The position numbers are program-made. From Escherichia coli (GTDB lineage Bacteria > Pseudomonadota > Gammaproteobacteria > Enterobacterales > Enterobacteriaceae), in NCBI RefSeq assembly GCF_030384885.1, contig NZ_CP128613.1: DNA of 64,000 nt, one strand, 5' to 3'. Of the stretch, positions 59,201 to 62,200 are shown one piece after another. Position 1 is the first letter of the stretch. Every line of letters starts with the position of its first letter.

Positions 59201-62200
59201 TACGGGTGAGGATTCAGTAGAGATTTATTCTGTAGATACTACACCTTTTATGGCGGCTATTCAGAATCATAATATACATTCTGTTCGTTTTTTTAGTCAA
59301 TTGCTTATGGGAAACTCACCAAAAGCAAAAAATAATCGTGACATTGTGCGCCGGGCAAACCCTTTGATCGAAGTGTATAAATATAGTCATGGTTCAAAAA
59401 AACAACGTAACTCAGGGTTAGAAATAAGTAAGCAATTAATCGCTATTATGCCAGAACTATTAACAGATGCCGTCTGGCGTGCCGTGCTCAATGTATATGA
59501 TGCCGATGCAGCACGATGGTTCTGGCGTAAGCAACCACCAGAAAATCGGTTGTATCGCTTAAAGGCTATGGCATTAATACCACAAACAGATGCGCTGTTG
59601 GCAGAGATTCGACATACTCCAGAGGTACTGAATATCTCGTCTGAGGGGGACCTGAATGAAGAGGAGTTTCTCCATTTCTTAATTTATGGAGGAGATACCG
59701 CTGTAATACATGCACTGGTTGAAAAAGGAATAGTTAACTGGCAGCACCTTATGAACATTGAGGGGTTTGATAAGGACCCCTTAATATGGTCTATTTCAAA
59801 ACTGGGAGAAAACGACAATGACCGGGAGGTTTTGGCATTAATTATTCATGATATTAATGCGCAAAACGCACTGCCGGAGGAACGCATTGCCAAATATTTA
59901 ACGTGGACGGGAGCAATGGGCGAGATTTTTTTAAAGGCGGGCGTACATTGTGATAAGTTATATGCGGCAATTGAGTCCGACAAAAAGCGAAATAATGGCA
60001 TGTATAGTCAAAACGCCAGGGAAGAAGTGGATCGCGTATGTACGCCCACAAAATAGGAGCAGTTTGGGGCGGTTAAGGGATAAAAAATAAATGCCTTTCG
60101 CTATCTGTCAGGGCGAATCTCACCATTTGCTATACCTTCCATTGGCGATGAACAGTATTCTACCCGCACTTTTTTTACGATTGCGTTGAAGCATTACAAC
60201 GCCCGCGCCATCCGCGCGTTTAGCCGCTTTCTGCAAGGAAATTCCTCAAAAGCGCAGGAATATCGCGCGATTGTTCATCAAAAAAATCCACTGCAGCAGA
60301 TGTACCGGGGAATAAGTTTGCCAATTCGTTTTAGTGAAGAAGAGATCGCCCGCCACATTGTTGCCGCTCGCGAGATAAGCCTCACCTTGCTGCCCCTGAT
60401 GCCAGAATTATTAAACGAAGAGGCGTATGCAAATGTCATTGATGCTAATGACAGCGCAACGCTGAAGGCTTTTTGGCAGATCCAGCTGCCGCCCACGCCG
60501 GTTTTACGCCTGGAAGCGATGTCGGTAATTCCCATGACAGCGGCACTGGTTCAACAGGTGAGGGAGTCACCAAAGCGGCTTGAACTGGAAGATAAAAGTG
60601 GCAGGACAGTACTAACTTACATCGTGCGCTTTGGGAATATTGCCGCAGTACAGGCACTGATTGACGCTAATCTGATCGACTGGCAACGGCTCCGCCAATC
60701 GACAGGAAGGTCAACACCATTATTACTGGCGATCTGGCGACAAAAATACGACGATGATTATGTAATCTTCCCATTGATTTTAAAGGACATGCTGGCAAAA
60801 AATGCGCCACCCTCAGCAGAGGAAATAATGAACTGCATTAAGGATGGTATGACCGCAGATGATTTTTTATCTGCCGGAATGAGCAACACGCAATTCTGTT
60901 CTGCGATTGAACAAAGCCTCCAGGCGAAAACGTCAGTATTACCGGCGAATCGATTACGCCATCTGCAATCCTCGCGGTGTGCAAAGCTGTAACCAACCGG
61001 AAGTTAAGTCATCCGCTGAAAACATCGCATTAACTTTTCGATTTCTCTTTCGTTCCGGCTTATAATCCCCGGCCTTTGATTATTTTTTTATCATTTCTGG
61101 AAGCAAAATGAGCTCTATCTCCCTGATCCAACCGGATCGCGACCTGTTCTCCTGGCCGCAGTACTGGGCCGCCTGTTTTGGACCGGCACCGTTTTTGCCG
61201 ATGTCTCGTGAAGAGATGGATCAACTTGGCTGGGATAGCTGCGACATCATTTTGGTTACTGGCGACGCGTATGTCGATCACCCAAGCTTCGGGATGGCGA
61301 TTTGCGGTCGTATGCTTGAAGCGCAGGGCTTTCGCGTCGGGATCATCGCCCAGCCAGACTGGAGCAGCAAAGACGATTTCATGCGTCTGGGTAAACCGAA
61401 TCTGTTTTTCGGTGTTACTGCTGGCAACATGGACTCGATGATCAACCGCTATACCGCCGATCGCCGTTTACGTCATGACGATGCCTACACACCGGATAAC
61501 GTCGCGGGTAAGCGCCCGGATCGCGCCACCCTGGTTTATACCCAACGCTGTAAAGAGGCGTGGAAAGATGTGCCGGTGATCCTCGGCGGTATTGAGGCTA
61601 GTTTGCGTCGTACCGCGCATTATGATTACTGGTCTGATACCGTGCGCCGTTCCGTGCTGGTGGATTCCAAAGCCGACATGCTGATGTTCGGTAACGGTGA
61701 GCGTCCGCTGGTGGAAGTGGCGCATCGTCTGGCGATGGGTGAGCCGATTAGTGAAATCCGCGATGTGCGTAATACCGCGATTATCGTAAAAGAGGCGTTG
61801 CCAGGCTGGAGCGGTGTGGATTCCACCCGTCTTGATACTCCTGGGAAAATCGACCCGATCCCGCATCCGTATGGTGAAGATTTGCCGTGCGCGGATAACA
61901 AACCGGTGGCCCCGAAAAAGCAGGAAGCGAAAGCCGTAACCGTGCAGCCACCGCGCCCGAAACCGTGGGAAAAAACTTACGTATTGCTGCCTTCTTTCGA
62001 GAAAGTGAAGGGCGATAAAGTGCTGTACGCTCATGCTTCGCGTATTCTGCACCATGAAACCAACCCAGGCTGCGCGCGTGCGCTGATGCAAAAACATGGC
62101 GACCGCTATGTATGGATCAACCCGCCTGCCATCCCGCTTTCTACCGAAGAGATGGACAGCGTCTTTGCGCTGCCGTACAAGCGCGTGCCGCATCCGGCTT

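What the first reader, a model, noticed from the sequence alone, without database searches (positions are those of the whole stretch)
60081..60992. Ankyrin paralog reading frame is conserved upstream of any usable ATG
The frame of the 268-aa ORF stays open back to a TAA at 60081-60083, and the upstream translation (…SPFAIPSIGDEQYSTRTFFTIAL…) still aligns with the upstream protein (…GEDSVEIYSVDTTPFMAAIQNHN…), yet there is no in-frame ATG until about codon 39 of the track ORF. This looks like a tandem duplicate that lost its 5' end, leaving either a TTG-initiated protein or a decaying pseudogene.
Basis: seen in the sequence. Interest (0 to 1): 0.4.

Follow-up and report, generated by a model that had tools for sequence, protein, structure and literature searches.

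The report
Gene remnant left by 519-bp deletion
The open frame with no proper start is the tail of a 469-residue membrane-anchored ankyrin-like gene whose ribosome-binding site, start codon and first 169 codons were removed by one 519-bp deletion, so it is most likely an ordinary decaying pseudogene that databases annotate as a real gene with three different starts.

Summary
The frame is open from 60084 to 60992. The only in-frame start-type codons before 60387 are TTG 60186, ATG 60300 and TTG 60318. The stretch upstream of the TTG still aligns with the neighbouring 474-aa paralog.

The cause is a single 519-bp deletion. The window is E. coli, 100% identical to strain 2013C-4282. The two-gene locus between ftsP and ygiQ occurs in only 13 of 5426 complete E. 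coli genomes. Nine carry an intact second gene of 469 aa with an AAGGA ribosome-binding site and ATG. Three, including the window strain, carry the same deletion, with a 3-bp AAA microhomology junction at 60089-60091. It removed the ribosome-binding site, the ATG, the membrane helices and codons 1-169.

Both genes are intact in E. whittamii, so the deletion is the derived state.

Decay is favoured over a TTG-initiated protein:
- TTG 60186 and ATG 60300 have no Shine-Dalgarno match.
- A sister deletion sublineage has a TAG between them.
- Changes private to the deletion clade are 6 nonsynonymous to 2 synonymous.
- The gene carries three further independent frameshifts in other strains.

A 224-aa soluble product from TTG 60318 is not excluded. 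The finding is ordinary and of low interest.

The parts
58632..60056 (+). Gene A: intact 474-aa paralog with N-terminal hydrophobic helices and a C-terminal ankyrin-like helical-repeat domain. It is AT-rich (38-43% GC).
   Evidence: ORF. Annotated as hypothetical or membrane protein. 26% identical over its full length to intact gene B, E 2e-43. Hydrophobic segments within residues 8-86. GC profile.
60057..60088 (+). Surviving part of the A-B intergenic spacer. It includes the in-frame TAA at 60081-60083 that closes the frame upstream, and an AAGGGA motif at 60075-60080.
   Evidence: Colinear with intact alleles up to L002 position 2092.
60089..60091 (+). Deletion junction: the 3-bp microhomology AAA shared by both breakpoints. 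519 bp present in intact alleles (L002 about 2093-2611) is missing here.
   Evidence: The blastn breakpoints overlap by 3 bases. Sequence comparison. Coordinates are identical in 6 deletion-bearing loci.
60090..60992 (+). Remnant of gene B: codons 170-469 plus the stop of the ancestral 469-aa gene. It lacks the ribosome-binding site, the ATG and the membrane domain.
   Evidence: Translation. 97.5-97.9% DNA identity to L002 2609-3560. No hydrophobic segment in the remnant.
60186..60188 (+). TTG, start of the 268-aa track ORF. It is Leu201 of the intact protein and has no Shine-Dalgarno match.
   Evidence: Anti-SD duplex energy +0.3 kcal/mol, against -5.3 for the intact B start. The column is Leu or Ile across the family.
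60255..60257 (+). CAG (Gln) in the window. It is TAG in the sister deletion sublineage (MFDS1022581, MFDS1019527, L021-L023).
   Evidence: CAG is the state in all intact alleles examined.
60300..60302 (+). First in-frame ATG, which gives a 230-aa call. It has no Shine-Dalgarno match.
   Evidence: Duplex energy +1.6. The exact 230-aa product is recorded on 413 contigs.
60318..60320 (+). TTG chosen by NCBI's PGAP annotation pipeline, which gives 224 aa. It is preceded by GGGGA, and it is the only candidate start with a Shine-Dalgarno-like match. It corresponds to residue 246 of the intact protein, in a low-confidence loop.
   Evidence: Annotation. Duplex energy -5.7, but 16% of all start-type triplets in the locus score as well. 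The model has pLDDT below 50 at residues 246-249.
60091..60189 (+). Out-of-frame 32-codon ORF created by the junction. Its ATG lies 10 nt after AAGGGA, and its TGA stop overlaps TTG 60186. No function is shown.

Best explanation
Window 60084-60992 is the 3' three-fifths of a formerly 469-residue gene, called gene B here. Gene B is the downstream member of an old tandem pair, A and B, lying between ftsP and ygiQ. Both encode an N-terminal bundle of membrane helices followed by an ankyrin-like helical-repeat domain.

Shown:
- A single illegitimate-recombination or slippage event across a 3-bp AAA microhomology deleted 519 bp.
- The deleted stretch held the last 10 bases of the spacer with the AAGGA ribosome-binding site, the ATG, and codons 1-169 (all the membrane helices plus a linker).
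- The frame stays open upstream of any usable start because the sequence there is still coding sequence for residues 170-200. It closes at a TAA that belongs to the old intergenic spacer.

Inferred:
- The remnant is probably still transcribed with gene A. No terminator was found between them.
- It has no efficient translation start, so it is drifting as a pseudogene. A sister sublineage has already acquired a nonsense codon.
For: Deletion and intact state:
- The window is 100% identical to E. coli 2013C-4282.
- The locus is in 13 of 5426 complete genomes.
- Nine have an intact 469-aa B with AAAGGACTAAGCC-ATG.
- Three have the 519-bp deletion at identical coordinates, as do three further draft assemblies.
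- A and B are both intact and syntenic in E. whittamii (L025) and in L024. B alone sits after ftsP in Escherichia sp. MOD1-EC7003 and Superficieibacter electus. The long form is therefore ancestral.
- A and intact B align end to end, membrane domain included.

Evidence for decay:
- TTG 60186 and ATG 60300 have no Shine-Dalgarno match (+0.3 and +1.6 kcal/mol, against -5.2 to -6.3 for five of the six real starts tested, ygiQ being -3.3).
- CAG has become TAG at the position equivalent to 60255 in the sister deletion sublineage.
- Substitutions private to the deletion clade are 2 synonymous, 5 missense and 1 nonsense. Intact alleles compare at dN/dS 0.2-0.3.
- B carries independent lesions elsewhere: a 1-bp deletion at L002 2690, a 1-bp deletion at 2806, and a 1-bp insertion at 3008 in a strain that also has an IS1 in the 3' end of gene A.
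- No terminator-like site lies between A and the remnant.
Against: - The 224-230-aa part of the frame downstream of 60300 is open in all six deletion alleles read.
- TTG 60318 has a GGGGA Shine-Dalgarno-like motif as good as those of real genes here (-5.7). It falls in a predicted loop before a well-folded C-terminal subdomain, so a soluble product is conceivable.
- The excess of nonsynonymous changes is not significant (6:2 against 9:12, Fisher p = 0.21).
- Divergence within the deletion clade is only about 0.3-0.4%, so an open frame says little either way.
- There are no expression data.
Confidence: 0.8

Rival explanations
1. The remnant is a live gene. It makes a soluble 224-230-aa ankyrin-like protein, no longer membrane-anchored, from TTG 60318 or ATG 60300, and this truncated form is maintained in the lineage.
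For: - GGGGA lies 6 nt before TTG 60318, with duplex energy -5.7, comparable to real starts.
- PGAP annotates this start.
- The frame is open in all six deletion alleles examined, including those with the upstream TAG.
- The start falls in a low-confidence loop ahead of a confidently modelled C-terminal subdomain.
- The allele is common: the exact products are recorded on 228-413 contigs.
Against: - 16% of all start-type triplets in the locus have an equal or better Shine-Dalgarno score, so the motif is not significant.
- Three of the five private missense changes fall inside this 224-aa part (60430, 60516, 60733).
- Every full-length family member listed, in six genera, keeps the membrane domain. 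Short database entries, where examined, are fragments of split genes.
- Divergence is too low for the open frame to be informative.
Confidence: 0.15
2. The 268-aa TTG-initiated protein (60186-60992) is the real product. It might be translated by termination-reinitiation after the 32-codon out-of-frame ORF (ATG 60091 to TGA 60187-60189) that the junction created.
For: - The exact 268-aa call is on 337 contigs.
- The junction places an ATG 10 nt after AAGGGA (duplex energy -5.2).
- That short ORF's TGA overlaps the TTG.
Against: - TTG 60186 has no Shine-Dalgarno match (+0.3).
- It is an ordinary internal Leu/Ile codon of the family.
- The sister deletion sublineage has TAG 23 codons downstream, so this product is dispensable there.
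- Gene callers pick the same TTG even in alleles where the full 469-aa frame is intact, which shows the call is an annotation habit.
Confidence: 0.04
3. The short form is an assembly artefact, or the long form arose by an insertion into an originally short gene.
For: None beyond the bare length difference.
Against: - The same junction is in three complete genomes and three independent draft assemblies. Its products are on hundreds of contigs.
- The extra 519 bp of the long form encodes a membrane domain homologous to that of paralog A. It is present in E. whittamii, other Escherichia lineages and Superficieibacter.
Confidence: 0.01

Closest known systems
5'-truncated bacterial pseudogenes made by microhomology-mediated deletion (general class of gene decay)
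   Same: - An intact ortholog exists in close relatives.
- One deletion with a 3-bp microhomology removed the ribosome-binding site, the start codon and the N-terminal domain.
- A secondary nonsense mutation is present in a sister lineage.
- The same gene carries parallel frameshift lesions in other strains.
   Different: Nothing unusual. The only oddity is that public annotation treats the remnant as a live gene with three different starts (224, 230 and 268 aa).
Ankyrin-repeat proteins (Pfam Ank_2 PF12796 and relatives)
   Same: - The C-terminal domain is modelled as stacked helix pairs.
- Profile positions 326-364 hit proteins with dozens of ankyrin repeats.
   Different: - Pfam scores are below the gathering threshold.
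- Only about one repeat is canonical at sequence level.
- The domain is fused to an N-terminal multi-helix membrane region.
- The family is confined to Enterobacteriaceae, and every member listed with a source name is annotated 'hypothetical' or 'uncharacterized'.
AnkB, the ankyrin-like protein of Pseudomonas aeruginosa (PDB 9iq8). From my own knowledge, it is described as a membrane-associated or periplasmic ankyrin-like protein needed for full KatB catalase activity.
   Different: - Sequence identity is 14% over 107 aligned residues.
- The architecture differs: four long N-terminal helices and a domain of about 300 residues here.
- There is no catalase gene nearby.
- No functional link was tested.

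Membership tests
5'-truncated pseudogene | A full-length, intact ortholog exists in close relatives and outgroups | tested here: met
   A 469-aa B is present in 9 complete E. coli genomes, in E. whittamii and in L024.
5'-truncated pseudogene | An identifiable lesion removes the start codon and ribosome-binding site | tested here: met
   A 519-bp deletion, L002 about 2093-2611, with its junction at window 60089-60091.
5'-truncated pseudogene | No replacement start with a ribosome-binding site | tested here: inconclusive
   TTG 60186 and ATG 60300 have none. TTG 60318 has GGGGA, but that score is reached by 16% of start-type triplets in the locus.
5'-truncated pseudogene | Further disabling mutations accumulate after the lesion | tested here: met
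   CAG has become TAG at the position equivalent to 60255 in MFDS1022581, MFDS1019527 and L021-L023.
5'-truncated pseudogene | Relaxed selection (dN/dS near 1) on the remnant | tested here: inconclusive
   Private changes are 6 nonsynonymous to 2 synonymous, against 9:12 between intact alleles. Fisher p = 0.21.
5'-truncated pseudogene | Absence of a protein product | not testable with these tools
   This needs ribosome profiling or proteomics.
Ankyrin repeat (Pfam PF12796 Ank_2 / PF00023 Ank) | Score at or above Pfam's gathering threshold | tested here: not met
   Ank_2 scores 21.0-22.9 bits against 27.3. Ank scores 12-13 against 21.1.
Ankyrin repeat (Pfam PF12796 Ank_2 / PF00023 Ank) | Ankyrin-repeat fold of the domain | tested here: met
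Ankyrin repeat (Pfam PF12796 Ank_2 / PF00023 Ank) | Reciprocal profile similarity to bona fide ankyrin proteins | tested here: met
   The family profile hits long proteins in up to 30 stretches through positions 326-364. Three of these were checked and are massively Ank-positive in Pfam.
Tandem paralog pair (gene A / gene B) | Significant full-length similarity between neighbours on the same strand | tested here: met
   26% identity over 468 columns, E 2e-43. The remnant against A gives 30% identity, E 7e-38.

The most novel reading that the evidence does not exclude
The deletion converted a membrane-anchored ankyrin-like protein into a free C-terminal domain. This would be translated from TTG 60318, or from TTG 60186 by reinitiation after the junction-created 32-codon ORF. 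The unanchored form would have been kept because it has a new or dominant-negative activity towards the intact paralog A next door.
Probability: 0.1. Interest if true: 0.3.

Novelty: new member of a known kind. Interest (0 to 1): 0.15.

Why it matters
The main value is for annotation. The remnant is recorded in public databases as an 'ankyrin repeat domain-containing protein' with three incompatible starts (224, 230 and 268 aa) on hundreds of contigs. Short starts are even called in strains whose 469-aa frame is intact. It should be annotated as a 5'-truncated pseudogene of a 469-aa gene.

A secondary point concerns the ftsP-ygiQ interval. It hosts an uncharacterised, Enterobacteriaceae-restricted family of membrane-anchored ankyrin-like proteins that is repeatedly duplicated, fragmented and lost. 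That may interest anyone studying bacterial ankyrin proteins or gene turnover. No new mechanism is implied.

Tried and rejected
- **Readthrough or fusion with gene A.** A and the remnant are in the same frame, but two stops separate them (TAG 60054, TAA 60081). Rejected from the sequence.
- **Independent truncations behind the 268-aa and 370-aa database entries (P0015, LD91-1).** Their loci have an intact 469-aa frame, so the short calls are annotation artefacts.
- **NCBIfam and PADLOC scans of A and intact B.** No meaningful hit.
- **Promoter and terminator scan of 58400-61200.** Counts were at or below shuffle expectation, and nothing lies between A and the remnant.
- **Literature search for ankyrin, ftsP and ygiQ.** Nothing relevant.
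- **Simple insertion or deletion relation between the occupied and empty ftsP-ygiQ sites.** Typical E. coli has an unrelated 34-bp hairpin there. That 34-mer has no counterpart within 8 mismatches anywhere in 58582-61010, so the history of the whole locus was not resolved.
- **dN/dS test for relaxed selection.** Too few substitutions (p = 0.21).

Full report
**Where the window comes from and what the locus looks like**

The region 58400-61200 is 100% identical to the chromosome of Escherichia coli strain 2013C-4282. The local gene order is:

| Coordinates | Feature |
|---|---|
| 53865-56123 | parC |
| 56357-57094 | plsC |
| 57169-58581 | ftsP |
| 58632-60056 | 474-aa ORF, called gene A here |
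| 60084-60992 | the frame in question |
| 61108-63327 | ygiQ |

Typical E. coli has nothing between ftsP and ygiQ except about 110 bp containing a 34-bp hairpin. Only 13 of 5426 complete E. coli genomes carry the two-gene segment.

**Checking the observation**

- TAA is at 60081-60083.
- The frame is open for 302 sense codons up to the stop at 60990-60992.
- The mechanical ORF starts at TTG 60186 and is 268 aa.
- The first in-frame ATG is at 60300, codon 39 of that ORF. No GTG or other start-type codon precedes the TTG.
- BLASTP of the extended translation against gene A gives 30% identity over 294 columns, E 7e-38. The alignment begins at residue 8 of the extension, about 80 bases upstream of the TTG.

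**What it is**

Ten of the 13 genomes have a locus 519 bp (518 bp in five of them) longer than the window. In strain GF4-3 (L002) the second gene is an intact 1410-nt, 469-aa ORF, called gene B here. It starts at an ATG preceded by AAAGGACTAAGCC.

Aligning the window with L002 gives two colinear blocks that overlap by three bases:
- window up to 60091 matches L002 up to 2092;
- window from 60089 matches L002 from 2609.

The window therefore lacks 519 bp, and the junction lies in a 3-bp AAA microhomology at 60089-60091. The deleted segment contains:
- the last 10 bases of the A-B spacer, with the AAGGA ribosome-binding site;
- the ATG;
- codons 1-169.

What remains is codons 170-469. The frame upstream of the TTG is 'conserved' simply because it still is coding sequence, for residues 170-200. 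The TAA that closes it belongs to the old spacer.

The status of gene B in the 13 complete genomes is as follows.

| Status of gene B | Genomes |
|---|---|
| Intact, 469 aa (9) | GF4-3, LD91-1, PT62, LP5-1, AH04, AH02, CT01, CX08, CX12 |
| Same 519-bp deletion (3) | 2013C-4282, MFDS1022581, MFDS1019527 |
| 1-bp insertion in B, plus an IS1 in the 3' end of gene A (1) | EC2641 |

Three independent draft assemblies (L021-L023) carry the same deletion. Their 230-aa product is the one sources name for E. coli M863. The junction coordinates are identical everywhere, which points to a single ancestral event. It also rules out an assembly artefact.

**Direction of change**

- Intact A and B align end to end, including the N-terminal hydrophobic region (26% identity, E 2e-43).
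- Both are intact and adjacent between ftsP and ygiQ in E. whittamii (L025) and in another Escherichia assembly (L024).
- A B ortholog alone follows ftsP in Escherichia sp. MOD1-EC7003, in an unnamed Escherichia-like metagenome contig, and in Superficieibacter electus.
- Pseudocitrobacter corydidari again has a tandem pair between ftsP and ygiQ.

The long form and the tandem arrangement are therefore ancestral. The duplication is old, and the short form is derived.

**What the intact protein looks like**

- Hydropathy finds three to four membrane-type segments within residues 8-115 of A and of intact B, and none in the remnant.
- An AlphaFold model of intact B, built from a 10-sequence alignment, has mean pLDDT 78. 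It shows four long N-terminal helices (residues 2-137, low confidence). These are followed by a confidently modelled stack of short helix pairs.
- Pfam ankyrin models score below threshold: Ank_2 gives 21-23 bits against 27.3.
- A profile of the family hits many-repeat proteins through positions 326-364. The three that I checked are strongly Ank-positive.

'Ankyrin-like' is therefore fair at the fold level. Formal Pfam membership is not met.

The family is small and restricted to Enterobacteriaceae: Escherichia, Salmonella, Pseudocitrobacter, Atlantibacter, Enterobacter cancerogenus and Superficieibacter. Every member listed with a source name is annotated 'hypothetical' or 'uncharacterized'. 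NCBIfam and PADLOC give nothing.

**Is the remnant alive?**

Evidence for decay:
1. TTG 60186 and ATG 60300 have no Shine-Dalgarno complementarity (+0.3 and +1.6 kcal/mol). Five of the six real starts tested, the intact B start among them, score -5.2 to -6.3. ygiQ scores -3.3.
2. The TTG is an ordinary Leu/Ile position of the family.
3. The sister deletion sublineage (both MFDS strains and L021-L023) has CAG changed to TAG at the position equivalent to 60255. That lies between the TTG and the ATG, so the 268-aa product is impossible there.
4. Substitutions found only in the deletion clade, and in none of six intact alleles, are 2 synonymous, 5 missense and 1 nonsense. That is about the neutral 3:1 ratio. 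Intact alleles compare at dN/dS 0.2-0.3.
5. B carries further independent frameshifts in other strains (L018; L019 and L020; EC2641). A carries one in L015. Most E. coli have lost the whole locus.

Evidence against decay:
- The 6:2 against 9:12 contrast is not significant (p = 0.21).
- The 224-230-aa part is open in all six deletion alleles read, but they differ by only about 0.3-0.4%.
- TTG 60318, the start PGAP chose, has a GGGGA motif scoring -5.7.
- It falls in a low-confidence loop, residue 246, before a well-modelled subdomain.
- That motif score is, however, reached by 16% of start-type triplets in the locus.

I therefore hold the pseudogene reading at about 0.8. A live soluble 224-230-aa product is at about 0.15. 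The TTG-268 protein is at a few percent.

**A curiosity at the junction**

The deletion placed an out-of-frame ATG (60091) 10 nt after AAGGGA. The resulting 32-codon ORF ends at a TGA that overlaps TTG 60186. This could in principle allow reinitiation. Nothing supports that it happens, and the downstream TAG in the sister lineage argues that it is not needed.

**Annotation**

The same DNA is recorded as 224-aa, 230-aa and 268-aa proteins on 228, 413 and 337 contigs. Even in strains with an intact 469-aa frame, callers sometimes report 268 aa (L015-L017) or 370 aa (LD91-1).

**Verdict**

This is a 5'-truncated remnant of an old tandem paralog, produced by one 519-bp microhomology deletion, and most probably a decaying pseudogene. 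It is an ordinary evolutionary event in an uncharacterised but unremarkable gene family. Interest is low.

Noticed in passing
window 58632-60056 versus 60090-60992 and flanks: Gene A is markedly AT-rich (38-43% GC). The gene B remnant is 47-51% GC, and ftsP and ygiQ are about 55%. The two old paralogs have very different composition.
   Followed up: no
window 58582-58631; L010 784-817: The occupied and empty ftsP-ygiQ sites are not related by a clean insertion or deletion. Typical E. coli has a 34-bp hairpin (CATACTCGCCC GAGGA GGGCGAGTATG). The window has a different hairpin (GCCCCAC...GTGGGGC, 58596-58615) right after ftsP.
   Followed up: partly
L011 4444-4842; L012 6433-6795; L028 5447-5818: Short ORFs next to full-length family members in other species. 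The first two resemble only the N-terminal membrane part of the family (tblastn E 7.5e-5 and 5e-4). The 123-aa ORF after the Pseudocitrobacter pair was not compared. If they are gene fragments, the ftsP-ygiQ interval repeatedly gains, fragments and loses copies.
   Followed up: partly
Salmonella enterica cluster of P0038; L027: The Salmonella relative (466 aa) is often recorded as split 130-aa and 310-aa products, which suggests parallel pseudogenisation. The one Salmonella locus I read is flanked by ISL3 and IS1 transposase genes rather than ftsP and ygiQ.
   Followed up: no
L005 (EC2641) 2045-2815; L014 6779-7051: IS1 elements sit in or beside the locus. In EC2641 one is inserted in the 3' end of gene A, with a target duplication that changes A's C-terminus. 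IS1 fragments lie downstream of B in a MOD1-EC7003-like contig.
   Followed up: partly
window 53865-56123 (parC): The window's parC is at most 98.7% identical to that of any other complete E. coli genome and about 97.5% or less to the bulk, so the strain belongs to a divergent lineage. The deletion allele is nevertheless 99.7% identical to that of MFDS strains whose parC differs by 2.5%. This may reflect recombination of the locus.
   Followed up: no
window 63366-63647 and 63614-63871, minus strand: Two adjacent Lpp-like small lipoprotein ORFs (Pfam LPP in related loci). Related loci carry one copy (L015-L017, L024) or two (L021-L023).
   Followed up: no
window 60091-60189: The deletion junction created an out-of-frame 32-codon ORF. 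Its ATG lies 10 nt after AAGGGA, and its TGA overlaps TTG 60186.
   Followed up: partly
L015-L017, L003: Gene callers report 268-aa or 370-aa products for gene B even where the full 469-aa frame is intact. The truncated entries may be propagating through homology-based annotation.
   Followed up: partly
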